From positions 109,495 to 173,494 of IMG/VR virus record IMGVR_UViG_3300035696_001556: a stretch of DNA of 64,000 nt; one strand, given 5' to 3'. Shown here in pieces: positions 48,749 to 61,865 of the stretch. Numbering within the stretch: the first letter of the stretch is position 1; each line of letters begins with the position of its first letter. The notes below the pieces were generated by a model. It was not told the DNA's origin. It did not search any database and saw only the letters and a program-made list of their open reading frames with translations. A program made the position numbers and the translations under genes. The DNA is from a virus.

Positions 48749-50059
48749 ATGTATAGAGATGTTTTAGGTTTTTCAATATCGCCCTTTATGCAAAGGGTCA
48801 TGAATATACATGGATTTTTTGGTTCAATCATGCGTACAGGAAAGAAATCGGAAGACAGCAGTAACAAACTTCCTCCCGGAGTACCGATCCCGGTTTTACC
48901 AGTAGACTATTTGAAAGTTCGTCCAGATAGTTGGATAGGGGGCGAAGGAGCATATGTAGTTCCCGTTGACTCAGATTGGGGACTCTGGTTCAACTTCACC
49001 ATGAATAATCCTTTTAACACAGCAGTCCTTCCTTCTATAAAAGGCATGAATCCTCTTACGGGGCAGCGTGTGAGTGGGTATGATCTTGAAGAGTATCAAG
49101 ACAAATGTCCTGTACATAACAAACCCTTCAGCAAAGGTAATCTTTGTACGGAGTGTGGTTTCAAATGGCCCTATCAGAACTATCTTGCGCATCCTGGAAA
49201 ACTTTGGGTCGACGGATTTAGGACTCCGGATGGTAACGTACGCCAGTTTTATTTTACAGAAGAGATGGCGAAATCTATCCCAGAGCTGGTAATTGGTAAA
49301 GAAGATACAGTCCCAGCATTTGGATTTTGCTTCTACAAACTCAAGGAGTATGACGGGCATTTTGAAGAAGGAAAGTACGTCAAAAACGAATTTCCAATAA
49401 ATCCTCGCTCACAATATAGCTCTTATTGTGGAGGTAGTATAGGAATAGGTACTTCTTGTGCTTCTAGTATGTTTTATTCCCCAAGTCTGAGCACTGATTT
49501 TCTTGCTAAGCCAGCAGATATGGCCAGTAGAAGTGCCCGTTACCGTAAAGGACTAGCAGGACCAAGGAAATTCTCTACTGGAGGATCAATGCTACACATT
49601 TCTGGTGTATCTTTGGACTCAGTATCTTTTAAAACTGATTTGGCGGATGCAGACAGTTCTACAAAGGCATCTTATCTGTCAGCTAGTAATACAGCCTCAA
49701 TAGAGAGTGCTTCTAATGGAACTACTCTTAATTTTAGTTCGAGTGCAGATGGTGGAGCTTCGTATGAAAATACTTTGATAGGAGATGATGAGAAAGGCAC
49801 AGATATTTTACGTGAATATGAAAGTCCTTTACGTAAATCCGCAGAGGTGGGCATCGGAGCAGGAGCAAAAATAAAACAAGCTTTTGCAAAAAGCAGTAAG
49901 TCTTTAGAAGACTGGGAGAAGAAACCGGCAGGAGTTATCAGACTGTACTTTGTCTTCCAGGAAGAATTTGAAAGATATGCTGCAGCAGGTTTTAACAATC
50001 TCGAAGGAAATGAAACAGGATACCTTGAAGGTCTCCCAGTAGGAGGATCCCATGAATAA
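48749..50059 (+). CDS. hypothetical protein with zinc ribbon and Ser/Gly-rich linker, coupled to the vWA gene
   Basis: CPVH..CTEC, WVDGF..VRQF, C-terminal GIGAGAKIKQ; overlaps the start of the vWA ORF. Confidence 0.75.
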   Translation: MYRDVLGFSISPFMQRVMNIHGFFGSIMRTGKKSEDSSNKLPPGVPIPVLPVDYLKVRPDSWIGGEGAYVVPVDSDWGLWFNFTMNNPFNTAVLPSIKGMNPLTGQRVSGYDLEEYQDKCPVHNKPFSKGNLCTECGFKWPYQNYLAHPGKLWVDGFRTPDGNVRQFYFTEEMAKSIPELVIGKEDTVPAFGFCFYKLKEYDGHFEEGKYVKNEFPINPRSQYSSYCGGSIGIGTSCASSMFYSPSLSTDFLAKPADMASRSARYRKGLAGPRKFSTGGSMLHISGVSLDSVSFKTDLADADSSTKASYLSASNTASIESASNGTTLNFSSSADGGASYENTLIGDDEKGTDILREYESPLRKSAEVGIGAGAKIKQAFAKSSKSLEDWEKKPAGVIRLYFVFQEEFERYAAAGFNNLEGNETGYLEGLPVGGSHE

Positions 50060-50762
50060 GGTAGATTTATTATTTATATGTGATATAACGGGATCTATGG
50101 GTAGCCTCATAGATGATGCCAAAAAAAGAATGAAAGATATCTTGAGCAAGCTCTCTTCAGAATTCAATGTGGATACCCAAGTAGGTTTGTCTCTCTATCG
50201 TGATCACGTATCTCAGGGGGACCCTTTTACCGTGGTTACTTTTGATCTCATGCCTATAGATAAGATCCAAGAAAAAATAGATCAGATATTCGTTGATGGG
50301 GGTGGCGACTGGCAAGAAGCAGTCCTCGATGGAATTATTGAAGGAGTTTCCAATATGTCTTGGAGAAAAGAATCCAAGCGGATTGCTTTTCTCATAGGTG
50401 ACGCTCCCCCACATGGTATGGATGAAGATACTTTTTGCTGTACTTGTGGAAAAACTTGGGGGGACGCTATCCAGGTAGCTGAAGAGAAATGTGTGCCTAT
50501 TTATTCAATACCTTTGGATGATAAAGAAGAAGTGAGGAGTTCTTTTAGGACTCTTTCTACTTTTACCGGAGGGTTGTTAATTGAAGCTGATAATGCCTTG
50601 GATGCTGTTCTGGAAACACTCAGGGATCAGTTCGGAGAGTTAAATTTAGGCTCCAGAGTATTAGATCTACTTTCAAAAGATATATCGGCAGAAGAGATTT
50701 GTAAGATGCTTAACATTACTCGGGAAAAGTTATCTGAACTTGAAACAAAAACAACAGCATAA
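50052..50762 (+). CDS. vWA domain protein with C-terminal HTH-like tail
   Basis: MIDAS DITGSM, YRDH, GGGDWQEA, IGDAPPH. Confidence 0.88.
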   Translation: MNKVDLLFICDITGSMGSLIDDAKKRMKDILSKLSSEFNVDTQVGLSLYRDHVSQGDPFTVVTFDLMPIDKIQEKIDQIFVDGGGDWQEAVLDGIIEGVSNMSWRKESKRIAFLIGDAPPHGMDEDTFCCTCGKTWGDAIQVAEEKCVPIYSIPLDDKEEVRSSFRTLSTFTGGLLIEADNALDAVLETLRDQFGELNLGSRVLDLLSKDISAEEICKMLNITREKLSELETKTTA

Positions 50763-50777
50763 AAAGGAGATAATATC

Positions 50778-51419
50778 ATGCCTAGAAAAAACCATACCGA
50801 AATAGTCTGTATCATTGACCGTTCTGGTTCCATGGAAAGCATACGGAGCGATGCTATAGGTGGATTCAATGCGTTCATAGAGGAACAGAAGAAAATTCCA
50901 GGCACTGCCTCTGTGTCTCTCGTACTTTTTGACAATGAATACGAGACGCCGTACATAAATAAAGACATTAAGCAGATCGAAGGTTTAACGGATAAAACTT
51001 TCGTGCCTCGTGGAGGTACTGCTCTTTTTGATGCTGTAGGAAAAACTATTAACAGTACGTCAGCAAAAATAGCCTCCATGAAAAAAGAGGATCGCCCAGA
51101 GAAGGTAGTCGTTTGTATTCTTACAGACGGCGAGGAGAATAGCTCAAAAGAGTTTACCGGGGATCAGATAAAAGTCATGATTGATAATCAAAAAGGCCAA
51201 TCTCAATGGAGCTTTATCTTTCTAGCAGCTAATCAGGATGCTTTTGCAACTGCCTCTACGTTCTTTTCCTCTGCGTTTTTTAGTCCGCAACTAAGTGCAG
51301 ATAGCTTGGCTGTATGTAGTTTTGCTGCAACCGAAGATGGTACAGCCAGAGCCTTTGCTGACATGGGTAAAGCAACAACCCGTTTCAGAAGTAATGTTAA
51401 AAATAAAGATGCTAAATAG
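50778..51419 (+). CDS. vWA domain protein
   Basis: MIDAS DRSGSM, PRGGTALFDA, ILTDGEENSS, WSFIFLAAN. Confidence 0.9.
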   Translation: MPRKNHTEIVCIIDRSGSMESIRSDAIGGFNAFIEEQKKIPGTASVSLVLFDNEYETPYINKDIKQIEGLTDKTFVPRGGTALFDAVGKTINSTSAKIASMKKEDRPEKVVVCILTDGEENSSKEFTGDQIKVMIDNQKGQSQWSFIFLAANQDAFATASTFFSSAFFSPQLSADSLAVCSFAATEDGTARAFADMGKATTRFRSNVKNKDAK

Positions 51420-51975: not shown

Positions 51976-52004
51976 TTGACATTTTTCTTAAATCAGTGTA
52001 TATT
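51976..52004 (+). promoter_or_regulatory. sigma70-type promoter TTGACA-17-TATATT driving the ncRNA array
   Basis: Consensus -35 at 51976-51981 and -10 at 51999-52004; A-rich upstream element. Confidence 0.85.
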
Positions 52005-52057
52005 TAGTTTCAGCAGAAGAGGCAATCTCGTTTAACTAGGTCAGTCGCCCGTTCTTT

Positions 52058-52281
52058 GAAATAGTCGGTTTGCTCACATCGTGTGGCTTACATTATTATA
52101 GCAAGTAATAACACGATACTCAGTGCTCCCTGCAAATAGCAGGGGTGCAAGAGTGTCACACGCATGGAAGCCTACCGCCGTTTTATAGTGTCAACCCTAA
52201 AGTTGAAGTTATAAAATTTTAGAGCCTAAGGCGGCAAGGTTTTCATGCAAAGCAGCACAACTCGAGCAGGCCGATTGTTTC
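52058..52281 (+). ncRNA. Y-RNA-like unit 1 (multi-hairpin, non-tRNA cargo)
   Basis: 18-bp closing stem 52058-52075/52264-52281; scaffold motifs present; three internal hairpin domains. Confidence 0.8.
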
Positions 52282-52326
52282 TTTAAAACCGGAATACTGT
52301 ACCTCGTTTCAATAAGAATGATCTTT

Positions 52327-52457
52327 GAAATAGTCGGATTACTCGCATCGTCAGGCTTACATTCTATCACAGGGACAGAACGATGCTTCTACACCTGGCC
52401 GTGGGCTGGGTAAGTAGAGGCATCAAAGCATGACAACTTGAGTAGTCTGATTGTTTC
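52327..52457 (+). ncRNA. Y-RNA-like unit 2 (long-hairpin cargo)
   Basis: 18-bp closing stem 52327-52344/52440-52457; cargo GATGCTTCTAC-ACCTGGCC..GGCTGGGT-GTAGAGGCATC. Confidence 0.8.
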
Positions 52458-52523
52458 TTTAAAATAGAAATGCACCCCATCGTTCCCTGCGGGATGGTGG
52501 TAAGAAATTTGATCTTTGAAATC

Positions 52524-52674
52524 TGAGTCTTTGCTCGTACTGTTGAGGCATACATAGCTTTTTCAGCTCGTTTGGTCGAGCAATTTCCATATATTTCCAT
52601 ATAAGGAATAGGTAGCTGGTTCAAATCCGGCAGAAAGCACCAAAAATTGCATTGACGACTTGGGCAAAGACTCA
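52524..52674 (+). ncRNA. Y-RNA-like unit 3 carrying a linear tRNA-like domain (52557-52642) ending in ACCA
   Basis: 13-bp closing stem; acceptor GCTTTTT/AGAAAGC, D arm GCTC..GAGC, T arm GCTGG-TTCAAAT-CCGGC; 10-nt duplication in the anticodon arm. Confidence 0.85.
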
Positions 52675-52703
52675 CTTTTTAAAATAAATTCTTTGAAATA
52701 ACG

Positions 52704-52843
52704 TTTGGATTTTACGACCACTGTAGAGGCGTACATTGTGATTAGCTCAATTGGTAGAGCAATCGCTATTAAGCGATGGGTTCCGGAGTTCAAATCTCCG
52801 GACACATAAAATGACCGCATCAACGACTTTCGTAAAGTCCAAA
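52704..52843 (+). ncRNA. Y-RNA-like unit 4 carrying a degenerate linear tRNA-like domain (about 52736-52807)
   Basis: 14-bp closing stem; TAGCTCAATTGGTAGAGC D arm, ATCGC/GCGAT arm with 6-nt loop, CGGAG-TTCAAAT-CTCCG T arm; weak acceptor, no CCA. Confidence 0.85.
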
Positions 52844-52861
52844 TTTTTTAAAATCGATCTT

Positions 52862-53019
52862 TGAAATATTCGTGCTCGTACTGCCAGGGCATACATTTAG
52901 TTCGTTGGTTCAAATCCAACTATCTTCGCCAAACTGAAGATGTAGACCAGTGGTTAGGTCAATAGATCGCAAATCTATCATTAAAAATCTGCAATGACGA
53001 CTTGAGCACGGATGTTTCA
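52862..53019 (+). ncRNA. Y-RNA-like unit 5 carrying a circularly permuted tRNA (52899-52978)
   Basis: 16-bp closing stem; order is T arm, 3' acceptor TATCTTC-G-CCA, AACT linker, 5' acceptor GAAGATG, D arm, anticodon arm (GCA). Confidence 0.85.
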
Positions 53020-53039
53020 CCTTTACAAATAGTTCTTTG

Positions 53040-53211
53040 ACAGTGAGCAGAATGAGGTCACACTCCCACTATTGGGGCATACATATTTCGAGGTTCGACT
53101 CCTCATCCCCCGATTACCGGGGGAAAGTCCTACGGTAGGACACTTGTATTCGGAACAAGCAAGAAAAAAATTGCATCGATGACTTGAGTGTGATCTCTTT
53201 CGACTCACTGT
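53040..53211 (+). ncRNA. Y-RNA-like unit 6 carrying a circularly permuted tRNA (53090-53159)
   Basis: Interrupted 8+12-bp closing stem; GAGG-TTCGACT-CCTC, TCCCCCG-ATTAC-CGGGGGA, GTCC-TACGGTA-GGAC, CTTGT-ATTCGGA-ACAAG (TCG). Confidence 0.85.
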
Positions 53212-53224
53212 AAAAATAAAAAGG

Positions 53225-53256
53225 ATACCGGGGCAAACGTCTCGGTATTTTTTTTT
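53225..53256 (+). terminator. intrinsic terminator closing the ncRNA array
   Basis: ATACCGGGGC-AAAC-GTCTCGGTAT followed by a run of T. Confidence 0.85.
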
Positions 53257-53268
53257 GTAAAAAGTTCT

Positions 53269-53296
53269 TTAACATCGTTATGTCAAAAAGTATATT
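53269..53296 (+). promoter_or_regulatory. putative promoter TTAACA-16-TATATT for the Ubl / Ro60-like genes
   Basis: Same TATATT -10 as the other promoters in the window; 38 nt upstream of the Ubl ATG. Confidence 0.5.
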
Positions 53297-53334
53297 ATTA
53301 TAGTCGACGATAAACCGTTAACCAGGAGGTAGCC

Positions 53335-53622
53335 ATGAACGCAGTTACGAACCAAACCGTAGTCCACGTCCATTTCGACGGACGTTCCGATGACATCCCT
53401 CTGGATGTCCTTTTTCCTGTGACCCCGCCTGAGCTCTCTGCAGAGTTCGAGCGTAATGCCAGCGGTGTAGCCGCAGCAGGGTCCGCCTTCGTTCGTACAG
53501 TCAAAGAAGGTCTTGCAAATCATTACGACCGTCCGGTCAATGAGTTTGCGGACTACATCGTTGACTTCACCGAGAACCAGAACATCACGGTTCGTCCGAA
53601 GGCCGAGTTCGGTTCGAAGTAG
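53335..53622 (+). CDS. putative ubiquitin-like (beta-grasp) protein with C-terminal Gly-Ser-Lys
   Basis: 95 aa; strand-strand-helix-strand-strand pattern VHVHFDGRSDDI..VKEGLANHY..YIVD..ITVRPKAEFG; RBS AGGAGG; E1 and JAB genes nearby. Confidence 0.6.
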   Translation: MNAVTNQTVVHVHFDGRSDDIPLDVLFPVTPPELSAEFERNASGVAAAGSAFVRTVKEGLANHYDRPVNEFADYIVDFTENQNITVRPKAEFGSK

Positions 53623-53650
53623 AGTGATCGCTCTCTTTGGTCTTTTAACT

Positions 53651-53672
53651 GGGGTACTTACAAGAGTGCCCC
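53651..53672 (+). terminator. intergenic hairpin after the Ubl gene (attenuator or stabiliser)
   Basis: GGGGTACT..AGTGCCCC. Confidence 0.4.
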
Positions 53673-53706
53673 TTCATATCCATATAATATAACAAAGGAT
53701 ACCGCC

Positions 53707-55281
53707 ATGAATCAGCAACAGCGTCAGCCTACCCAGGAAGAAGACATCCGCCTGAAAATGTTAAATAGCTTTATGACTTGTCCCCACAGGGACACGGTAG
53801 AGCTAAACAAACTTCATGCTGAGTTGCAGGAAAAAGATCCTTTGTTCTATGTGCATCTTGCAGCATGGTATCAGAGGCACGGAGATCTCCGTGACCACAA
53901 AGAGATTTTCTCAGCACGTCTTATTACCGACATCTATCTGCCAAACAGAGAGGCCGGTCTTGCCCTCTTCCAGAAGCATCCTTTCTTCCTGAAGTTCAAG
54001 ATTTTCAACTTCATCAAGGGAAAAGATGTTAAGATACGTACGAAGACCGGTAAGAAAATCGTCGTCGAAATTAAAAACAAAAAGAAAACAGTCGACGAGG
54101 TCAAGATCGACAAAAAACATGTCGGACTTGACAAAAATATCCCTTCTTCTTTCTTAACCGAACTGTCACGGTACCTAAACTGGCTGGAAGCGAATCCGGA
54201 GCAGTTTGATACCGTAGCCATGAGGAATGCTTCGGATCTGAAGGCTCTTTATGTTAATCTCAGATTCAAGCATTCGAAGAGGACCAATGATATCCTCTTT
54301 GAGAAAAAGTATCCGAAGAATAGCAAAATGGCTTCTTTCAAAGCGATTATCGAAGCCAAAGATCCCACCAAGCAAGCTGAGATGATCGTAAAGGAGAAGA
54401 TCCCTTTTACGACTGCTATTGGTCTGGTCGAAGACCCGACCCCAGCTGTTTGGGTAGCACTTATCGATGCAATGAGTCCCCAGGAAGCCATTAACCACGT
54501 GGCCACCTTTGAGGAAAAAGGTCTTTTGGATAACGTGGCTACCAAAGACCTTATTATGAAGAAGCTCAAGAAAGCGGAGACGACCAAGACTGTTTCGGCT
54601 CTTAAATCTAAAGCAGCCACAGCTACGGGTCGTATCAAGAACGAAGAAGTCGTAAAACAGATGGATAACATCGCTGACAAGCAAATTAAAAAAGGCGGTG
54701 TTATCAGGGTTTCTACGGCTATCTGTGTCGATAAATCAGGTTCCATGACTAGGGCTATTCAGGTGGGCAAGAATGTCGCGGCTCTGGTTTCTGGAGCTAC
54801 GGAAGCACCGTTGCATGTGTTTGCTTTTGATCAAATGGTTTATCCAATAGTCTCCAGGGAACAAACTCTTACGGGATGGGAAGCGGCTTTCAGGCCTATT
54901 ATCGCCAATGGTAGGACCTGCATGAGTTCTTGTGCGGACTACCTTATCAAAAAGAACATCCTGGTGGAGCAGTTTGTCTTCATTACGGATGAAGGGGAAA
55001 CGGATTCTCCTACTTTTGCCTCCAAGTACCTGGAATACAAAACAAAATTTAATACCTCTCCGCATGTCGTTATTGTTCATGTCGAGGGAGGCGAGAGGTC
55101 GAGCACTTTGTTCTCGGATCGATTAAAGCAAGCAGGGATCGAGTTTGACACCTACACGCCGAAAGAAGCGGACTACTATTCTCTACCGGGGTTGATCCCA
55201 CTTCTCGCTCGGAAGACCAAACTCGATCTTCTTTACGAGATCATGGATACTCCTTTACCGGCAAGAAAAGTGTATGCTTAA
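53707..55281 (+). CDS. Ro60/TROVE-like protein: helical N-terminal domain plus C-terminal vWA domain
   Basis: 524 aa; DPLFYVHLAAWY..DLRD resembles TROVE N-termini; MIDAS DKSGSM..GRTC..FITDEGE; adjacent to Y-RNA-like array. Confidence 0.7.
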   Translation: MNQQQRQPTQEEDIRLKMLNSFMTCPHRDTVELNKLHAELQEKDPLFYVHLAAWYQRHGDLRDHKEIFSARLITDIYLPNREAGLALFQKHPFFLKFKIFNFIKGKDVKIRTKTGKKIVVEIKNKKKTVDEVKIDKKHVGLDKNIPSSFLTELSRYLNWLEANPEQFDTVAMRNASDLKALYVNLRFKHSKRTNDILFEKKYPKNSKMASFKAIIEAKDPTKQAEMIVKEKIPFTTAIGLVEDPTPAVWVALIDAMSPQEAINHVATFEEKGLLDNVATKDLIMKKLKKAETTKTVSALKSKAATATGRIKNEEVVKQMDNIADKQIKKGGVIRVSTAICVDKSGSMTRAIQVGKNVAALVSGATEAPLHVFAFDQMVYPIVSREQTLTGWEAAFRPIIANGRTCMSSCADYLIKKNILVEQFVFITDEGETDSPTFASKYLEYKTKFNTSPHVVIVHVEGGERSSTLFSDRLKQAGIEFDTYTPKEADYYSLPGLIPLLARKTKLDLLYEIMDTPLPARKVYA

Positions 55282-55313
55282 GAAGATAGGCCACTGGTTG
55301 TATGTAACCATAT

Positions 55314-55341
55314 TTGGGGCATCACTGCCCCAATTTGGTTT
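55314..55341 (+). terminator. probable intrinsic terminator
   Basis: TTGGGGCA-TCAC-TGCCCCAA followed by TTTGGTTT. Confidence 0.55.
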
Positions 55342-55437
55342 ATCTATTTGCTTTCTTCTTGGTGTAGGTTATTCGATTTACTGGACGGTTGAAGGTATAT
55401 CCTGGATAACGAGGCACATACATATTTTGATTCAGTG

Positions 55438-55551
55438 AAATTGTGTGAGGTAGTTCCAAATATTAATTTGGCTCTCGCTGATTCCTTTATGATGGGTGGG
55501 ATAAGGCGAGATTTTAAATAGGTACTCAATCCTATCTACCTCACATAATTT
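55438..55551 (+). ncRNA. candidate four-way-junction RNA
   Basis: 16-bp closing stem AAATTGTGTGAGGTAG/CTACCTCACATAATTT enclosing three hairpins, in an intergenic gap. Confidence 0.5.
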
Positions 55552-55566
55552 TTGAAGGGATAGATT

Positions 55567-55767
55567 ATGTGGTGTGCTGTCTGCAACAAAGATCTTGTGA
55601 AATGTGTCTGTCCAGATATAGAAGAGCGACTTACTTCTCTTGCAGGGACTCCTGCTGCTCCCGCTGCTGCAATGAATCTAATGAGGCGAATGGCGACACA
55701 AGACAAAGACAGTAAAGCTGTACCAAAACTACTTCTTAAAAAGACAACTAAAAGAAAAAGGAGATAA
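55567..55767 (+). CDS. small Cys-rich protein
   Basis: CAVC..CVCP; basic tail. Confidence 0.6.
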   Translation: MWCAVCNKDLVKCVCPDIEERLTSLAGTPAAPAAAMNLMRRMATQDKDSKAVPKLLLKKTTKRKRR

Positions 55768-55770
55768 TTT

Positions 55771-56037
55771 ATGGGTTCAGGCACAGTTTATATGTACGGG
55801 ATGTTCCCTGCTAGGTTTAAGAAAAAGAAAGCACAATTACCTCCTGAGCAGAAACCCAAAGATACGCCCATATCTTATGATGACGTGGTCAGCAAACTGC
55901 TCGATCACATAGAGGCCATGTGTGATTCTCCCGATACTCCACCGAAACTAAAGGTAGAGTCTATCCAAAAGATGCTCTCTGATTTTCGAAGAGGAGATTG
56001 GGAAGACTGGCTGATTCCTCCTAAGAAAGAGGAATAA
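55771..56037 (+). CDS. hypothetical protein
   Basis: RBS AGGAG; 88 aa. Confidence 0.65.
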   Translation: MGSGTVYMYGMFPARFKKKKAQLPPEQKPKDTPISYDDVVSKLLDHIEAMCDSPDTPPKLKVESIQKMLSDFRRGDWEDWLIPPKKEE

Positions 56038-56041
56038 TAAA

Positions 56042-56893
56042 ATGAGCGACGATGTCTTAGAAATCATCCGTAAATTAGGTGAAACCGAAAACTCCCTCTC
56101 CAAGAGGGAATTCATTTCTCCGGTATACAAAAACAAATATGTAGTCACTCGAATAGATAAGATAGCCTACACATTCTCAATTCCCGAAAGTAAACCTGGG
56201 TGGTACAGGTTTCGTCCTGTAAATCGCAAAAAAGCGAAAATACTTGGCCCAAGTAGCTTCCAGGATACAGAGATTTATCAGAAATTACTTGAAAAAGTGA
56301 GGATAGTTTTAGTGCAAAGAGATGGGGATGTTTTCTACGGGGTGCCTTTTAAGACTAATCAACAAGGTTTGGACATTAAGATCCTCTATCCTGTCTATTT
56401 GGTTCTGGATGATATGGTACAAGATTTCGATGAGATTATCTGTCGCTACGATGGGGCTAATCTTTGGTATCAAGCCGTTGAAGCCAATAATGACCAAGCC
56501 AAGGTCAACTATCTTCGTGAGAGTTTGAAAGCTGCTGCCCTTCCCAAAAAACTAGCCTACTCGGGTTTACGCTTCGAAGACAAAATGGCTTATGCCATCC
56601 GGTGTGAAATTGATAAGAAAGTCCTGGAAAGAAATAAAGAATATCGTCTCAAGCATGCCGTAGAGCACGCTGGGGGTATCTTTAAATCTTTCACGGAAAA
56701 AGGGGATCATTTTAATGTGTCGTACGAAGTCGATGGAGAAAAATATACTTCCACTATCGCTAAAAACGATGAGCTGAAAGTATTGACTGCTGGGATCTGT
56801 CTGCAGAGTCAAGATCAAAAGTTTGATCTTACAAGTCTTATAAGCGTTATCCGTGAGGGGCAGCACAGGGATCTCATTCACCGTACAAGGTAA
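56042..56893 (+). CDS. putative divergent E2-like conjugating protein
   Basis: C-terminal helix, beta-meander, AGICL, then DLTSLISVI helix recalls the UBC G-x-I-C-L catalytic region; lacks HPN; context of Ubl, E1 and JAB. Confidence 0.45.
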   Translation: MSDDVLEIIRKLGETENSLSKREFISPVYKNKYVVTRIDKIAYTFSIPESKPGWYRFRPVNRKKAKILGPSSFQDTEIYQKLLEKVRIVLVQRDGDVFYGVPFKTNQQGLDIKILYPVYLVLDDMVQDFDEIICRYDGANLWYQAVEANNDQAKVNYLRESLKAAALPKKLAYSGLRFEDKMAYAIRCEIDKKVLERNKEYRLKHAVEHAGGIFKSFTEKGDHFNVSYEVDGEKYTSTIAKNDELKVLTAGICLQSQDQKFDLTSLISVIREGQHRDLIHRTR

Positions 56894-56904
56894 AGGGGTA
56901 CAAT

Positions 56905-57120
56905 ATGAATTGCCCACTAGCTCCGCGCTATGAAAGATTCAATTTTAAGGATTGTGTCACGGGCTATGAGGAGTGCAGAGAAGATAAGTGTAACTTCTAT
57001 AATGTTGCTCGTAAGAGATGCATTTTTGTGACTATGGCGGAAGACATTGAACAGATTAAAGTGTCAAATGCAGCCATAAATACGGATTTAACAACGAAAC
57101 CTCATCCGTCTGTATTGTGA
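56905..57120 (+). CDS. small Cys-rich protein
   Basis: CPL..C..C..C..C pattern. Confidence 0.6.
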   Translation: MNCPLAPRYERFNFKDCVTGYEECREDKCNFYNVARKRCIFVTMAEDIEQIKVSNAAINTDLTTKPHPSVL

Positions 57121-57317
57121 ATGAAGCCATGACTGTGAGCGATCAAATACAAGAAATTAGAACCAAATGCATGCTACAGACCAAATGCAAAAAATGTACC
57201 ATGCGCGGTATTTTTTCTTGTAAGTTTAGAAAGAATTGCAGACCATGGCAGTGGGATCTGAATAAAATTAGAGCGTGGTTACAAGAGCCAAAGGAGTACT
57301 CAGGTGACAAAAAATAA
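57117..57317 (+). CDS. small Cys-rich protein
   Basis: C..CKKC..C..CRPWQW; GTGA start/stop overlap. Confidence 0.55.
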   Translation: MNEAMTVSDQIQEIRTKCMLQTKCKKCTMRGIFSCKFRKNCRPWQWDLNKIRAWLQEPKEYSGDKK

Positions 57318-57759
57318 ACTGAAAAACAAACAGCGTGGTCTTCAGAAACTGTTTGACAGTTTCCCTACCCATATATCGCTTGCCAATCATGATGAAGGGT
57401 GGGCCATTAGACCGAAGGCAATGCAAAAAAGATTTAAAAAAATATGGGGTCAGGAACAAACTCCTAGTCTTTATTTTCCCATTATTATTCAATGGTCCGA
57501 AAAAGGTCGAGGTTTTGGAGAGTATGCTTTTTGGCAGCTTGACGGACAAATATTTTGTAACAATGGGTGTGATTCAAAGGAAACTATAAAAAGGATACTA
57601 TGTCAAATGGTCGATCAGGCTATTTTTATGGATCCTTCGGATGGAGAAAAGGTCAATCCAGAACATCGGAAACTGATAAACCGAGAAAGACTCTTGTTCT
57701 GTGCTGCGATTAAACAAGAACAAGAAAAGTCAGAAAGCAAGAAATCACACAATAACTAA
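57304..57759 (+). CDS. hypothetical phage protein
   Basis: 151 aa; WSEKGRGFGEYAF. Confidence 0.65.
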   Translation: MTKNKLKNKQRGLQKLFDSFPTHISLANHDEGWAIRPKAMQKRFKKIWGQEQTPSLYFPIIIQWSEKGRGFGEYAFWQLDGQIFCNNGCDSKETIKRILCQMVDQAIFMDPSDGEKVNPEHRKLINRERLLFCAAIKQEQEKSESKKSHNN

Positions 57760-57833
57760 AAGAGAAAGAAACTATATTAAAAAACACATGATAAAATATA
57801 ATAAAAATACAAAAGTTATTGGAGTATAAAAAC

Positions 57834-59888
57834 ATGAAGTTGATTATAGTTGAATCTCCGGCCAAAATAAGAACTATCCAAGGATTCTTGGGTGGTGAAT
57901 ATAAATTAGCTGCGAGTATGGGGCATATTTATAGGATTATTCCAAAAGATAGCTCTATAGATATAAAAAATAACTATGAACCAACATATGAGGTTATCCC
58001 TGAAAAGACTAAAGTTGTTAGTGAGTTGAAATTGACAGCAAAAAAAGCAGAAATTATTTATATAGCTAGTGATCCAGACAGAGAAGGTGAGGCTATAGGA
58101 TACGACATTTTACATAGAGTTTTAAAAGATGTTAAATGTCCTATAAAACGTATTACTTTTAATTCTATTACAAAATCTGCTGTACTTGCAGCTTTAAAAA
58201 ATCCTAGAGATATAGATTTAAATCTATACCATGCTCAACAAGCTAGGTCTGTATTAGATATGCTCGTGGGTTTTAGGGTATCAAGAGTATTGTTTTCTAA
58301 GATAATGCGAGGTTTATCAGCCGGAAGAGTCCAATCTATAGGCTTAGAACTTATAGTGAATCGTCAAAAAGAAATAGATGCTTTTATTAAAGAAGAGTAT
58401 TGGGATATTGTTGGAAAATTTCAAACAAAAGATCATAAGAGCTTCACTGCTATGTATAATAGTAAAGAGAAGCTCACTAATGGGGAACAAACTAAAAAAA
58501 TAGCTGCTGATATAGAAAAAGAGCCTAAATGGGAAATAGAGTCTATTAATAAAGACACTAAATCCAGAAGTCCTACACCCCTATTTCATACCTCATCTCT
58601 TCAACAATTTTGTTATTCAGCCTGGGGTTGGGATAATAAAAAAACCATGAGTGTGGCACAGAAGTTGTATGAAGGTTTTCCTGTAGGGAATAATCCTAGT
58701 ACAGGATTAATATCTTATATGAGAACAGATTCTTTTAATATAGATCCTGAATCTCTTAAAAATGTAAGGGATATGATTCAAAACAAATATGGCTCTACTT
58801 ATATATCTAGTACTCCAAGATACTATAAATCTAAAAACAAAGCTGAACAATCTGGACATACAGGTATATTATGCCCTCATTTAGACTATACCCCTTCTAT
58901 AGTTAAAACCAGTATACCAGTAGATGAGGCTAAACTTTATGAAGCTATTTATAATAGATTTGTAGCATGCCAAATGTCTGATGCTACATTTGATACATCT
59001 AAAGTTACTATTAAATCGGGGAGTGCTAAACATATTTTTACAGCTAATGGTCAGACTATGAAATTTGATGGATACCTTAAAGTCTGGATATATTCTACAG
59101 CTAAGGAAGAAGTACTTCCAGTATTAAAAGAAAAAGAAGAAGTTTTTTTAGAATCTTTAGATCCACAACAACACTGGACTCAGGGTCCTCCAAGAATGAA
59201 TCCCGCATCATTGACAAAAGAAATGGAGGCTTCTGGAGTTGGAAGACCTTCCACCTACGTTTCCGTAATAGAAACTATAAAGAAAAGACAGTACGCTGAG
59301 ATAGTTGACAAAGCATTTGTCCCTACAGATCTTGGTAAAAAAGTGTGCGCTTTTCTAATACCTAACTTTCCTGAGCTTATGGATGTAGAGTATACTGCAA
59401 GAATTGAAGATCAGCTTGACGATTGTGCAGAAGGCAAGATTGTGTGGTATAAAGTAGTAGATGAATTTTACAAAGAATTAAAAAAAAGACTGGTAGCTTC
59501 TAAAGATGCTCCTTCTATGCGCACTAACGAAGCCACCACTATTCTTTGCCCTACTTGTGGCAAATATAATCTTGTTAAAAAAAATGGTAGATACGGAAAC
59601 TTCTATGGATGCGCTGGATATGCCGACAAAAAGAAATGTAAAGCTACATTTAAAATAGGACCGGATGGGCAACCCATTATCGCTCCTGTTGTGGAGAAAG
59701 TATATTTAGAAGGTGTGAAATGTGACAAGTGTGGTAAAAAGATTGTTGCTAGAAAATCTAAAAGAACCGGAAAAGAATTCTATGCTTGTAGTGGTTTTCC
59801 AAAATGTAAAAGATTATTTGATGCAGGAGGTAATCACTTAGAGTTTAAAAAGAAATTTTATAATAAAAAAACCAACCAAAATGCTTAA
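57834..59888 (+). CDS. topA: type IA DNA topoisomerase I
   Basis: LIIVESPAK, ASMGH, ASDPDREGEAI, SAGRVQ, GLISYMRTDS (catalytic Tyr), GVGRPSTY, two C4 zinc ribbons; RBS GGAG before ATG 57834. Confidence 0.95.
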   Translation: MKLIIVESPAKIRTIQGFLGGEYKLAASMGHIYRIIPKDSSIDIKNNYEPTYEVIPEKTKVVSELKLTAKKAEIIYIASDPDREGEAIGYDILHRVLKDVKCPIKRITFNSITKSAVLAALKNPRDIDLNLYHAQQARSVLDMLVGFRVSRVLFSKIMRGLSAGRVQSIGLELIVNRQKEIDAFIKEEYWDIVGKFQTKDHKSFTAMYNSKEKLTNGEQTKKIAADIEKEPKWEIESINKDTKSRSPTPLFHTSSLQQFCYSAWGWDNKKTMSVAQKLYEGFPVGNNPSTGLISYMRTDSFNIDPESLKNVRDMIQNKYGSTYISSTPRYYKSKNKAEQSGHTGILCPHLDYTPSIVKTSIPVDEAKLYEAIYNRFVACQMSDATFDTSKVTIKSGSAKHIFTANGQTMKFDGYLKVWIYSTAKEEVLPVLKEKEEVFLESLDPQQHWTQGPPRMNPASLTKEMEASGVGRPSTYVSVIETIKKRQYAEIVDKAFVPTDLGKKVCAFLIPNFPELMDVEYTARIEDQLDDCAEGKIVWYKVVDEFYKELKKRLVASKDAPSMRTNEATTILCPTCGKYNLVKKNGRYGNFYGCAGYADKKKCKATFKIGPDGQPIIAPVVEKVYLEGVKCDKCGKKIVARKSKRTGKEFYACSGFPKCKRLFDAGGNHLEFKKKFYNKKTNQNA

Positions 59889-60723
59889 ACCTGTTATAAA
59901 AAATGGTAAAATTTTAAAATCTTTGGTTATTAAAATTTGTGATAGCTGTGGTAAAGAACTCGTAACAGATACCTATACAGCTAAAACTCAACGAAAGCAT
60001 AGATCTCATAACAATGATAAGGATTTTTGTTGGGGGTGTTCTCAAAAAAATAGAGTAATGCCAAAAGGAGAAAACTATGGAAATTTTATACACGGAATTA
60101 GTAATCAGGGTTATAGGAGAGTTACAGTGGATGGAGTACGTCAACAAGAGCACAAATACATATACGGTCTGAGTATAGGTAGAAAATTAGAAAATCAGGA
60201 ACAGGTTCATCATATAGATTTTAATAAATTAAACAACAACATAGAGAATCTTTACCTATGTAAGTCCCTTTCGGAGAATTTTAAATTAAACGTATCTATG
60301 CAAAAGTGTGGTTTTATTTTTTTGAATAAAAGAATATGGTTTGACTACAAAAAGAAAGTATATTCTTTAAATAAAAGTAATGTACCAGACATCAAAGAGC
60401 CCGTTGTTCTTTTACCCGCTTATGCTAAAAAACTTTATGTTAAGAAAAGCAGGGACACATTCTATGTCATGTACTTAAGAAAAAGACATGATTGGCAAAG
60501 ATATCACATTGCTGTAATGGAGGCCTTCATAGGTAGAAAATTTAAAAAAGGGGAAGGTGTTCACCACATAAATGGGAATACTTTGGATAATTCAATAAGA
60601 AATCTGTGTTTAGTAACAAATGCAGAGCATCAAAACGCACATAAATCTTTGTTGGCCTGCGCAGCAGAGCTGTTTAGAAGAGGTTTATTAACTTTCTCAA
60701 ATGGAGAGTACAAGTGTGGATAA
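59881..60723 (+). CDS. HNH homing endonuclease with two HNH domains
   Basis: EH..GRKL..VHHIDFNKLNNNIENL and YH..GRKF..VHHINGNTLDNSIRNL..H; N-terminal CxxC..CxxC. Confidence 0.85.
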   Translation: MLKPVIKNGKILKSLVIKICDSCGKELVTDTYTAKTQRKHRSHNNDKDFCWGCSQKNRVMPKGENYGNFIHGISNQGYRRVTVDGVRQQEHKYIYGLSIGRKLENQEQVHHIDFNKLNNNIENLYLCKSLSENFKLNVSMQKCGFIFLNKRIWFDYKKKVYSLNKSNVPDIKEPVVLLPAYAKKLYVKKSRDTFYVMYLRKRHDWQRYHIAVMEAFIGRKFKKGEGVHHINGNTLDNSIRNLCLVTNAEHQNAHKSLLACAAELFRRGLLTFSNGEYKCG

Positions 60724-61171
60724 AAGCATAATGGAAACTGAAGAAAAAGAAGAAGTTGTTCAGGAAGGTTTTACTGAGGAAGTCTGGTTCCTTTATGGTA
60801 TCAGGATCTTAAACTTTTTCTTTGGTTTCACTGTTTATCAGAACAAAGGAGAAGTGGCTTACGTAACCTTTGACTGGAAGAAAGCTTTCTCGTTTCTCCC
60901 TTTCATCAAAGACGCCAACAAATTCCTTATTGGGTTCTATCACACGCACCCGGGCGGTGACCCTGCTCCTAGCGGCACGGATACTTCTACGATGGGCACA
61001 TGGGTAAAAGCAATGGGAAAACCTATGCTAGCAGGAATTAAAAGCGGTAACCGTCAGAAATGCTATCTCTACAAGAGAGTCGCACCCAGATCCTCCGACA
61101 TAAAGTATAAGAGGATAAGCTCTACCTGGAACGGTAAGCTGTTTTGCGGTATATATACGGAGGGAAAATAA
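60701..61171 (+). CDS. JAB/MPN+ (Mov34) metallopeptidase
   Basis: Upstream EE plus JAMM motif GFYHTHPGGDPAPSGTD (HxH-x7-S-x2-D). Confidence 0.85.
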   Translation: MESTSVDKSIMETEEKEEVVQEGFTEEVWFLYGIRILNFFFGFTVYQNKGEVAYVTFDWKKAFSFLPFIKDANKFLIGFYHTHPGGDPAPSGTDTSTMGTWVKAMGKPMLAGIKSGNRQKCYLYKRVAPRSSDIKYKRISSTWNGKLFCGIYTEGK

Positions 61172-61220
61172 AGTTGTTGGATTCGTAGTTATTAAAAAGT
61201 ATATTAGTGCAGGAGGCATC

Positions 61221-61865
61221 GTGAACACACTCGTCCATGAAGAAGTCTACCGAGGAAAAAAGCTCCTCGATAAAATGGCTGTACAGCACCTAATAGTGTG
61301 TGGCTGCGGAGCAGTAGGCTCGAATCTTATCGATAATGCTGTACGACAGGGGTTCAAGAAGATAACGGTAATCGACTTCGACCGTATAGAGGACCACAAT
61401 AGACACACCCAGGTGTGGGATAAAAGACTCGTTGGATCCCTTAAGGCTGCGGCTATCAAAAACTATGTCTTTAACGTTATGAGCGATGCGAATGTAGAGG
61501 CTGTTACCAAGAAACTGGATGAGACCAATATCAAAAAGCTTTTCGTAACAGGAGGTATCGTTGTAGACGGGTTTGATAACTCTGCCAGCAGGAAGCTTGT
61601 TACCTCCTACTGTAAAGAGCATAAGATCACTTGTCTTCACGTAGGTCTTTATAAAGACTATGCTGAAATCATTTGGAACGAATACTACAAGCCGCCAGAG
61701 CCCTCTACGGCTGCGGATGTCTGTGAGTATCCCTTGGCCAGGAATGTCATTCTTATGGCTACTGCAGTGGCTACAGACGTCCTTATCAGGTATTTGGCCT
61801 CCGGAGTAAAAGAATGTTACATGATAACACTTAAGGATTTTAAGATCACGAAGATGGAAAGATAG
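61221..61865 (+). CDS. ThiF/E1-like ubiquitin-activating adenylyltransferase
   Basis: GCGAVGS, IDFDRIEDHNRHTQ, KA, VDGFDN..R; candidate thioester Cys in DVCEYP; GTG start with RBS AGGAGG. Confidence 0.9.
   Translation: MNTLVHEEVYRGKKLLDKMAVQHLIVCGCGAVGSNLIDNAVRQGFKKITVIDFDRIEDHNRHTQVWDKRLVGSLKAAAIKNYVFNVMSDANVEAVTKKLDETNIKKLFVTGGIVVDGFDNSASRKLVTSYCKEHKITCLHVGLYKDYAEIIWNEYYKPPEPSTAADVCEYPLARNVILMATAVATDVLIRYLASGVKECYMITLKDFKITKMER

What the first reader, a model, noticed from the sequence alone, without database searches (positions are those of the whole stretch)
51976..61865. Candidate new system: modular Y-RNA-like array + Ro60/TROVE-like protein + ubiquitin-like cascade (Ubl, E2-like, JAB, E1) in a phage
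Seen in sequence: a dedicated transcript of six scaffolded ncRNAs (52053-53211), then a 95-aa protein ending RPKAEFG-SK, a 524-aa helical+vWA protein with intact MIDAS, a protein with a C-terminal AGICL motif (56042), an intact JAMM peptidase (60701) and an E1/ThiF enzyme (61221). Established: Ro60/Rsr is a TROVE+vWA ring of similar size, and bacterial Y RNAs lie next to its gene, combining a Ro-binding stem with a tRNA-mimic module; E1-E2-JAB-Ubl sets form bacterial ubiquitin-like conjugation systems. Inference: the phage builds a family of Ro-like RNPs programmed by interchangeable RNA cargoes and links them to Ubl conjugation. The RNP could act as an RNA-guided adaptor or decoy that captures tRNA-binding host factors (for example anticodon nucleases) for Ubl tagging, or be the Ubl substrate itself. 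I know of no description of this combination.
Basis: partly seen in the sequence, partly recalled or inferred. Interest (0 to 1): 0.97.

Follow-up and report, generated by a model that had tools for sequence, protein, structure and literature searches.

The report
Ro60-like RNA particle plus ubiquitin-like module
A huge phage carries a conserved gene set, also found in bacterial chromosomes, that joins six tRNA-shaped small RNAs and a Ro60-type RNA-binding ring protein to a small ubiquitin-like protein with its activating and trimming enzymes; I found no paper describing this link between an RNA particle and protein-tagging machinery.

Summary
At 52053-53211, six RNA units share a covarying two-strand handle around variable cargo. 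Two cargoes are tRNA-like, two are circularly permuted tRNA mimics and two are not tRNA-like. The 524-aa protein folds as Ro60 (TROVE ring plus vWA with intact MIDAS). The 95-aa protein ends in an invariant Gly, and a model places that tail in the ATP site of the ThiF-type E1 (score 0.90, best control 0.01). The JAMM motif is intact.

The order Ubl, Ro60-like, p283, JAB, E1, with the RNA array beside it, recurs in all 13 related viral loci. It also occurs, without JAB, in bacterial chromosomes such as Dictyobacter. The topoisomerase and HNH genes that split the set in this window are local insertions.

The E2 call is not established. The front of p283 is OB-like. Its C-terminal part has a helix, four strands, an invariant Cys loop and a helix, but gave no UBC match. 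The anti-nuclease decoy idea is untested.

This scan has met the same module several times on other DNA. Full-text searches found no paper that links Ro60 to Ubl machinery.

The parts
51976..52004 (+). sigma-70-like promoter of the RNA array (TTGACA-17-TATATT)
   Evidence: 11 of 12 positions, the best match in the scanned region
52053..52281 (+). RNA unit 1: handle plus non-tRNA cargo of three hairpins
52322..52457 (+). RNA unit 2: handle plus a long irregular hairpin as cargo
52513..52683 (+). RNA unit 3: handle plus a linear tRNA-like cargo with an ACCA end and an over-long anticodon stem
   Evidence: ARAGORN calls it only at a lowered threshold.
52690..52852 (+). RNA unit 4: handle plus a tRNA-like cargo with a 6-nt anticodon loop
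   Evidence: Rfam tRNA 36.1 bits at 52736-52808. Standard ARAGORN run finds no tRNA.
52858..53019 (+). RNA unit 5: handle plus a circularly permuted tRNA mimic. Order: T arm, acceptor stem closed by G-CCA-AACU, D arm, anticodon arm GCA.
   Evidence: (tRNA 31.9 bits at 52936-53025)
53034..53211 (+). RNA unit 6: handle plus a circularly permuted tRNA mimic with a closed acceptor stem, no CCA, and anticodon loop UCG
53218..53255 (+). terminator-like hairpin followed by U9, ending the RNA transcript
   Evidence: -19.8 kcal/mol, z = -6.2
53269..53296 (+). promoter-like site ahead of the protein genes
   Evidence: 10 of 12 positions
53335..53622 (+). p95, a ubiquitin-like protein. G93 is invariant and is followed by an SK extension.
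53651..53672 (+). hairpin in the leader of the Ro60-like gene, flanked by AACUG and UUCAU. It resembles a closed half-handle and could be an autoregulatory site (weak inference).
   Evidence: z = -3.3. Similar elements occur in L001, L012 and L013.
53707..55281 (+). divergent Ro60 (TROVE ring plus vWA/MIDAS) with a Lys-rich beta-hairpin insert at residues 104-141
56042..56893 (+). p283: N-terminal helix, two OB-like beta-barrels, and a C-terminal helix / four-strand / Cys253-loop / helix domain. It is always encoded with the E1.
57819..59888 (+). type IA topoisomerase, a lineage-specific insertion into the cassette
   Evidence: It is absent from the contiguous cassettes of L036, L014, L016 and L018.
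59881..60723 (+). HNH endonuclease, a lineage-specific insertion
60701..61171 (+). JAMM/MPN+ metallopeptidase
61221..61865 (+). minimal ThiF-type E1 adenylyltransferase (214 aa)
50052..50762 (+). small vWA protein, a recurrent accessory gene of the module. A second vWA gene lies at 50778-51419.

Best explanation
This is one conserved functional module, not two neighbouring ones.

(1) RNA array. A dedicated transcript yields six Y-RNA-like RNAs. In each, the 5' and 3' ends pair into a conserved handle. From the base upward the handle has a long variable stem P1, an internal loop (5' nYAYn opposite 3' RACUY), a stem P2 of about 9 positions with one non-Watson-Crick pair and two conserved G-C pairs, and an unpaired UACA. 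The handle clamps interchangeable cargo, mostly tRNA-shaped.

(2) Ro60-like protein. The divergent Ro60 ring protein most likely binds this handle and so forms a family of ribonucleoprotein particles that display tRNA mimics. This step is inferred.

(3) Ubl activation. JAMM trims the SK extension from p95 to expose Gly93. The ThiF-type E1 then adenylates Gly93. The genes, motifs and a predicted complex support this step. The chemistry is inferred.

(4) Transfer. The activated Ubl then passes to a target inside or recruited by the particle. The best candidate for acceptor or transfer protein is p283. It is always encoded with the E1 and pairs RNA-binding-type OB-like barrels with an invariant cysteine loop. 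This step is the weakest.

Because the module also sits in bacterial chromosomes, its basic role is probably Ubl-controlled RNA surveillance or repair of tRNA-like substrates. In the phage it would protect or manage the tRNA pool during infection.
For: Fold:
- The AF2 model of the 524-aa protein has pLDDT 83.8. The top 12 PDB matches are all Ro60 over the full length (E from 2e-10 to 4e-7, TM about 0.6). They include Deinococcus Rsr and Thermus phage phiLo Ro60.
- The MIDAS residues are invariant.

RNA:
- I curated 61 non-redundant handles from 22 loci. Strands from the same unit pair at 6.77 of 7 positions in P1 and 7.75 of 9 in P2. Strands from different units pair at 3.95 and 5.30. Most positions show several Watson-Crick pair types.
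- Arrays lie beside the Ro60-like gene in phage and bacterial loci.
- Sister arrays give sub-threshold YrlA matches (31.9 bits, E = 1.3e-4, full model length).

Linkage:
- The order p95, Ro, p283, JAB, E1 on one strand is kept in 13 of 13 viral loci as far as the flanks reach. The genes are contiguous in L014, L016, L018, L015 and L036.
- In 301 sampled Chloroflexota genomes, p283 occurs in 11, the Ro60-like gene in 10 and both in 9, always within about 4 kb (Fisher p = 1e-14).

Ubl:
- The C-terminus ..VRPxxx(F/Y/W)G is conserved with an invariant Gly.
- Extensions beyond the Gly occur only where JAB is present: 8 of 11 loci with JAB against 0 of 4 complete loci without it (p = 0.026).
- Four genomes that lack JAB in the cassette have no copy of this JAB family anywhere.
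- In the E1 dimer plus p95 model, ipSAE is 0.90 against 0.01 for the best of three controls. That mark was reached by 58 of 80 solved complexes and 2 of 110 mismatched pairs. The runs agree in at least 93% of their contacts, and the partner pLDDT is at least 81. Tail residues 87-93 touch the E1 G-loop (28, 30-33) and the DGFDN motif (117-121). ThiF-ThiS and MoeB-MoaD complexes are solved, so the pass may partly reflect that likeness.
Against: - No binding or chemistry is measured.
- The handle lacks the GNCGAA motif of known bacterial Y RNAs, and no window unit reaches any Rfam Y RNA model.
- The protein misses Pfam TROVE.
- p283 has no detectable E2/UBC relationship. Its OB matches are weak (VIA Z at most 6.2; best Foldseek E 7e-5, TM under 0.2).
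- The best named matches of the E1 are short sulfur-carrier ThiF enzymes.
- In relatives some cargoes are good tRNAs (50-69 bits). The handle could therefore also be a pre-tRNA leader-trailer element.
- The handle statistics come from a finder that itself required pairing, and many loci are related.
Confidence: 0.6

Rival explanations
1. Sulfur-carrier reading. p95, E1 and JAB form a ThiS/TtuB/CysO-type sulfur relay. The Ubl is adenylated and thiocarboxylated, and it donates sulfur to thiolate the tRNA-like RNAs or to make a cofactor. There is no protein tagging.
For: The best NCBIfam matches of the E1 are 200-215-aa ThiF sulfur-carrier adenylyltransferases (3.8e-25). Established knowledge: JAMM trimming of carrier C-termini is known from the CysO/Mec+ and QbsE/QbsD pathways, and TtuB/TtuC thiolate tRNA. 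The RNAs have a tRNA shape.
Against: All ThiF matches fall far below the curated cut-offs. No rhodanese, cysteine desulfurase or PP-loop thiouridylase is encoded in any cassette examined. The p283 model shows no Rossmann-like ATPase fold.
Confidence: 0.15
2. Pre-tRNA cassette reading. The handle is a leader-trailer stem for the expression, protection or processing of phage tRNAs. The Ro60-like protein is a pre-tRNA chaperone, and the odd cargoes in this window are decayed tRNA genes.
For: In the relatives L001 and L036 the handle encloses tRNAs that score 49-69 bits, some with CCA ends. Unit 3 here keeps its ACCA end.
Against: ARAGORN calls none of the six window cargoes as a tRNA. Units 5 and 6 and the Dictyobacter chromosomal RNAs are permuted with closed acceptor stems. 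This architecture is kept with unrelated stem sequences. Several of the tRNAs carry A34 anticodons that are rare in bacteria. This reading leaves the obligate Ubl linkage unexplained.
Confidence: 0.15
3. First reader's model. The particle is a bait that captures host tRNA-targeting defence nucleases and marks them with the Ubl through p283 acting as an RNA-guided E2.
For: The cargoes present anticodon arms. p283 joins OB-like barrels to an invariant Cys in a G-I-C-L loop that follows a four-strand meander. The module is common in huge phages.
Against: No E2 family or fold match was found. The same module sits between housekeeping genes in bacterial chromosomes without phage genes. No target is known.
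Confidence: 0.1

Closest known systems
Bacterial and phage Ro60 (Rsr) with Y RNAs: Salmonella/Mycobacterium YrlA (Rfam RF02553), Deinococcus Yrn1-Rsr-PNPase, Thermus phage phiLo Ro60 with Yrl1/Yrl2 (PMC4201824, PMC12135203)
   Same: The protein is a ring-shaped TROVE plus vWA protein encoded next to its small RNAs. The RNAs have a terminal stem plus a tRNA-mimic module in the order T arm, closed acceptor stem, D arm. Phage-encoded examples are known.
   Different: The protein misses Pfam TROVE and carries a Lys-rich hairpin insert. The handle motif (RACUY, nYAYn, UACA) replaces the GNCGAA motif. The RNAs form arrays of up to six or more units with swappable cargo, some of it linear tRNAs. A Ubl-E1(-JAB)-p283 set is always co-encoded, which is not reported for any Ro60 locus.
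E2-less prokaryotic Ubl systems: archaeal SAMP/UbaA/HvJAMM1 and Thermus TtuB/TtuC with a JAMM peptidase
   Same: Both have a small Ubl with a C-terminal Gly, a ThiF-type E1, a JAMM peptidase and no recognisable canonical E2. The nearest named match of the JAB is a desampylase (3.1e-7). TtuB also serves in tRNA modification.
   Different: All matches lie below the family cut-offs. The E1 is shorter (214 aa) and has no CxxC zinc pairs or rhodanese domain. The set is tied to an RNA particle and to the p283 family.
Bacterial defence Ubl cascades (Bil; CBASS Cap2/Cap3; 6A-MBL)
   Same: They combine E1, JAB and Ubl logic. PADLOC E1-E2 models match the E1 core (2.4e-13).
   Different: Only the adenylation core matches. 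There is no fused or separate E2 domain, and no other component of those systems is present. The module is carried by phages as well as bacteria.

Membership tests
Ro60 / TROVE-vWA | HEAT-repeat toroid followed by a vWA domain | tested here: met
   Foldseek: the top 12 PDB matches are all Ro60 over the full length, E from 2e-10 to 4e-7
Ro60 / TROVE-vWA | Sequence match to Pfam TROVE (PF05731) | tested here: not met
   No Pfam family at E <= 0.01. The profile against PDB TROVE chains is only marginal (E = 0.05).
Ro60 / TROVE-vWA | Intact MIDAS (DxSxS...T...D) | tested here: met
   D342, S344, S346, T404 and D428 are invariant in 38 homologs
Ro60 / TROVE-vWA | Binds an adjacent Y RNA | not testable with these tools
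   Only adjacency is shown: the RNA array lies beside the gene in phage and bacterial loci
YrlA / bacterial Y RNA (RF02553) | Covariance-model match at the gathering score | tested here: not met
   No YrlA or Y_RNA match in the window even at E <= 10. Sister arrays score 31.9 and 29.9 bits against the gathering score of 69.
YrlA / bacterial Y RNA (RF02553) | Terminal stem plus a tRNA-like module ordered T arm, closed acceptor stem, D arm | tested here: met
   Units 5 and 6, compared with the description in PMC4201824
YrlA / bacterial Y RNA (RF02553) | GNCGAA(N)G motif near the 5' end | tested here: not met
   The 5' strands read CTCACATCG, CTCGTACTG and CTCCCACTA
Ubiquitin-like protein | Conserved C-terminal Gly used for activation | tested here: met
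   G93 is invariant and is followed by 0-4 residues
Ubiquitin-like protein | Beta-grasp fold | not tested
No Pfam Ubl family matches.
Ubiquitin-like protein | Engaged by a cognate E1 | tested here: inconclusive
   The model supports binding but does not show it. ipSAE is 0.90 against 0.01 for the best control. That mark was reached by 58 of 80 solved complexes and 2 of 110 mismatched pairs.
E1 / ThiF | ThiF adenylation domain with GxGxxG, an Arg finger and DxxDN | tested here: met
   Pfam ThiF scores 98.4 bits against the cut-off of 28.1. The motifs are invariant.
JAMM / MPN+ | E...HxH...S..D metal site | tested here: met
   E26, H81, H83, S91 and D94 are invariant. Prok-JAB scores 26.3 bits against the cut-off of 25.
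E2 / UBC | UBC fold | tested here: inconclusive
   The C-terminal 178-275 has a helix / four strands / Cys loop / helix topology. No UBC chain appears in the listed rows. The best related match is an RWD domain at Z 4.7, rmsd 3.6 A over 70 residues. The domain was not folded alone.
E2 / UBC | HPN motif upstream of the catalytic Cys, and a sequence match to UQ_con or Prok-E2 | tested here: not met
   No HPN motif is conserved. No such Pfam or PADLOC match appears even at E <= 10.
E2 / UBC | Invariant cysteine | tested here: met
   C253 is invariant in 60 sequences that are about 30% identical to the window's p283

The most novel reading that the evidence does not exclude
The activated Ubl is not, or not only, put on proteins. 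Like an aminoacyl-adenylate, p95-AMP could be transferred, directly or through the Cys of p283, onto the RNA itself, for example onto the CCA-type 3' end or a ribose of the tRNA-shaped cargo. Alternatively, p283 could be an RNA-guided E2 that tags whatever protein the tRNA mimic captures. Either case would be an RNA-programmed ubiquitin-like modification system shared by bacteria and huge phages.
Probability: 0.08. Interest if true: 0.97.

Novelty: new variant of a known kind. Interest (0 to 1): 0.85.

Why it matters
Ro60-Y RNA particles and prokaryotic ubiquitin-like systems are each known, but the biological roles of both are poorly understood. This module ties them together in a tightly conserved unit found in bacteria and in huge phages.

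It offers a tractable model for two questions: what the tRNA-like part of Y RNAs is for, and what bacterial Ubl systems without a canonical E2 act on.

It also adds three items that no Rfam or Pfam model matched at its threshold here:
- an RNA handle that can carry swappable cargo;
- a large protein family, p283, with 857 representatives at 50% clustering and no Pfam, NCBIfam, PADLOC or PHROG match;
- a divergent Ro60 clade.

If the Ubl turns out to act on the RNA particle or through it, that would be a new way of coupling RNA recognition to covalent tagging.

Tried and rejected
- megablast of the region against phage records found nothing.
- Pfam, PHROGs, PADLOC and NCBIfam gave nothing for p95, the Ro60-like protein or p283.
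- The p283 profile against PDB sequences gave only noise.
- Foldseek (PDB and BFVD) and VIA-wide on p283 gave only weak OB, S1, CSD and Mpa-type matches and no UBC row.
- I tried to collect Prok-E2_B sequences for a profile-profile test. None was found in 201 Chloroflexota genomes or in the controls, so the test was dropped.
- A fixed-geometry handle finder missed 4 of the 6 window units. The relaxed version finds 5 of 6 but also gives 24 hits on reversed control sequence, against 78 hits on the real sequence. Stray hits were removed by position.
- Coincidental adjacency of two modules was rejected on synteny and co-occurrence.
- A phage-only anti-defence origin was rejected because chromosomal copies lie among housekeeping genes.
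- The hairpins ahead of the Ro60-like gene that resemble half-handles occur in only some loci. I keep them as a weak lead.
Full report
**Context.** The window is the last 64 kb of a 173,494-nt IMG/VR virus record that CheckV rates 37% complete. Upstream genes encode a family A DNA polymerase, a DnaB-type helicase, an NAD-dependent ligase and an SNF2 helicase. The closest relatives of the genes studied here sit on viral contigs of 130-595 kb. This is therefore a huge phage. The promoter and Shine-Dalgarno signals are of the bacterial type.

**The RNA array.**
- A strong promoter-like site (51976-52004) precedes six tandem units, which end at a hairpin followed by U9 (53218-53255, z = -6.2).
- Each unit opens with TCTTTGA(A/C)A. 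Six of the eight window matches lie in the array, against 2.85 expected for the whole window.
- Minimum-free-energy folds pair the two ends of every unit into the same handle. The handle has a long variable stem P1, then an internal loop (5' nYAYn opposite 3' RACUY). Next comes a P2 stem of about 9 positions with one non-Watson-Crick pair, usually G-A, and two conserved G-C pairs. It ends in an unpaired UACA, followed by the cargo.
- The cargo differs from unit to unit. Units 1 and 2 carry hairpins. Unit 3 carries a linear tRNA-like body with an ACCA end but an over-long anticodon stem. Unit 4 carries a tRNA-like body with a 6-nt anticodon loop.
- Units 5 and 6 carry circularly permuted tRNA mimics in the order T arm, closed acceptor stem, D arm, anticodon arm. 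In unit 5 the loop that closes the acceptor stem still reads G-CCA-AACU.
- ARAGORN finds no tRNA in the window or in the whole 173-kb record. Rfam reports only two weak tRNA matches and no Y RNA family.

**Is the handle real?**
- A pattern-plus-pairing search over 22 loci gave 78 hits, against 24 on reversed control sequence. After I removed strays by position, 61 distinct handles remained.
- Strands from the same unit pair at 6.77 of 7 positions in P1 and 7.75 of 9 in P2. Strands from different units pair at 3.95 and 5.30.
- Most positions show three or four Watson-Crick pair types, while RACUY, UACA and the G-C pairs stay constant.
- The finder itself demands pairing and many loci are related, so these numbers show compensation but are not an unbiased test.
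- In the 595-kb phage LR756511 the same motif also appears in a second form. P1 is closed into a hairpin and the handle is inserted within tRNA-like bodies. The handle therefore behaves as a portable module.

**The Ro60-like protein.**
- The 524-aa protein has no Pfam or PHROG match but at least 885 homologs.
- A profile of 38 homologs finds TROVE proteins in the PDB only marginally (E = 0.05).
- The AF2 model (pLDDT 83.8) matches Ro60 structures over its full length. All top 12 matches are Ro60, including Xenopus Ro, Deinococcus Rsr and Thermus phage phiLo Ro60 (E from 2e-10 to 4e-7).
- The MIDAS residues are invariant.
- A 38-residue stretch holding a beta-hairpin (104-141) carries 14 Lys/Arg residues and is absent from the bacterial relatives.

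**The ubiquitin-like part.**
- p95 homologs share ..NGNITVRPxxx(F/Y/W)G with an invariant Gly followed by 0-4 residues.
- The JAB protein keeps the full JAMM site.
- The E1 is a 214-aa ThiF domain with all nucleotide-binding motifs and four invariant cysteines, but no CxxC pairs.
- Its best named relatives are short ThiF enzymes, and the best match of the JAB is a desampylase. All these matches fall below the curated cut-offs.
- A predicted complex of the E1 dimer with p95 residues 1-93 passed. ipSAE is 0.90 against 0.01 for the best control. That mark was reached by 58 of 80 solved complexes and 2 of 110 mismatched pairs. The runs agree in at least 93% of their contacts, and the partner pLDDT is at least 81.
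- In that model the p95 tail (87-93) lies against the G-loop and the DGFDN motif of the E1. ThiF-ThiS and MoeB-MoaD complexes are solved, so part of this pass may reflect that likeness.
- C-terminal extensions of p95 occur only in loci that encode JAB: 8 of 11 with JAB against 0 of 4 complete cassettes without it (p = 0.026).
- Four bacterial genomes with JAB-less cassettes have no member of this JAB family anywhere. This pattern fits a trimming role for JAB.

**p283.**
- The family is large, with 857 representatives at 50% clustering, and has no Pfam, NCBIfam, PADLOC or PHROG match.
- The model is confident (pLDDT 95.5). It has an N-terminal helix, two beta-barrels, a long helix, a four-strand meander, a loop with the invariant G251-x-C253, and a final helix.
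- Structure searches give only weak OB-type matches: RNase II CSD/S1 at 7e-5, Mpa inter-domain at Z 6.2, IF1A, S17 and CSD at Z about 5. For the C-terminal part the best related match is an RWD domain at Z 4.7.
- No UBC chain appears and no HPN motif is conserved. The E2 assignment is therefore a reasonable topological guess, not a finding.

**Linkage.**
- The five genes keep the order p95, Ro60-like, p283, JAB, E1 on one strand in all 13 viral loci as far as the flanks reach.
- They are contiguous in L014, L016, L018, L015 and in the 76%-identical relative L036.
- In this window the set is split by small ORFs, a topoisomerase gene and an HNH gene. In the 84%-identical relative L034 it is split by a TnpB gene and the topoisomerase gene. 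These are local insertions.
- The module also occurs in cellular genomes, for example the 5.6-Mb contig of Dictyobacter alpinus. There the order is p95 (ending ..YG), handle RNAs with permuted tRNA mimics, Ro60-like, HAD, vWA, p283, E1. The flanking genes are housekeeping genes.
- In 301 sampled Chloroflexota genomes, p283 occurs in 11, the Ro60-like gene in 10 and both in 9, always within about 4 kb (p = 1e-14).
- A small vWA protein (50052-50762 here) is a frequent extra member.

**Relation to Y RNAs.**
- Chen et al. describe YrlA as a terminal stem with a GNCGAA motif plus a tRNA-like domain ordered V, T, closed acceptor stem, D (PMC4201824).
- Units 5 and 6 have this order, but the handle has a different motif.
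- Sister arrays in L034 and L036 hold units that match Rfam YrlA below threshold (31.9 bits over the full model, E = 1.3e-4; and 29.9 bits).
- Arrays of close relatives keep the six-unit layout but differ in cargo. Some relatives carry real-looking tRNAs, several with unusual A34 anticodons.

**What is known.**
- Phage Ro60 proteins with Y-like RNAs are published. One source is a jumbo-phage survey (PMC7824862). Another reports phiLo Ro60, which binds Yrl1 and Yrl2 and host PNPase (PMC12135203).
- Asgard-virus work lists Ro60 and ThiF genes in one virus without connecting them.
- Full-text searches found no paper that links Ro60 or TROVE with Ubl, E1 or JAB genes.
- Earlier follow-ups in this scan reached the same module on other DNA at least seven times. 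One of them was later marked 'part of it fell' without detail. For that reason I keep the OB, E2 and 'undescribed' statements cautious.

**Verdict.**
The reading as a Ro60-like/Y-like RNA particle coupled to a Ubl activation set is well supported by fold, covariation, synteny and co-occurrence.
- The transfer step, the target and the biological role remain inferred.
- Rivals that remain open are a sulfur-carrier role for the Ubl and a pre-tRNA role for the handle.

Noticed in passing
window 52053-53042 (six sites); also L034, L036, L012, L019: TCTTTGA(A/C)A precedes every RNA unit here and in the sister arrays. From memory it resembles rRNA-operon boxA antitermination elements. Such an element could keep transcription running through the terminator-like outer stems.
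   Followed up: partly
window 57819-60723; L034 10622-11952 and 14778-16820: The conserved cassette has been invaded by mobile or accessory genes. Here these are a type IA topoisomerase and an HNH endonuclease whose end overlaps the JAB start. In the 84%-identical relative they are an RHH plus TnpB (Cas12f-like) pair and the same topoisomerase.
   Followed up: partly
window 48749-51419: A 436-aa protein with no family match is conserved upstream of the module in six related loci. It is followed by two small vWA proteins. The first vWA family recurs inside bacterial versions of the cassette.
   Followed up: partly
L036 17517-17927; L019 16861-17209: Related huge phages encode tmRNA genes a few kb downstream of the E1 gene.
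   Followed up: no
L001 3795-7300: In the 595-kb phage LR756511 the handle also occurs as a closed hairpin inserted within tRNA-like genes. About 15 copies are spread over 3.5 kb, interleaved with small ORFs and the Ubl gene.
   Followed up: partly
L036 14435-17182: Downstream of the cassette the relative carries flavoprotein/DFP (CoaBC-like) and cytidylyltransferase-like genes. This suggests phage-encoded coenzyme A pathway steps.
   Followed up: no
window 53651-53672; L001 7944-7968; L012 and L013 leaders: A hairpin flanked by AACUY and YYNAY, which looks like a closed half-handle, sits just upstream of the Ro60-like start codon in several loci. It could be an autoregulatory binding site.
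   Followed up: partly
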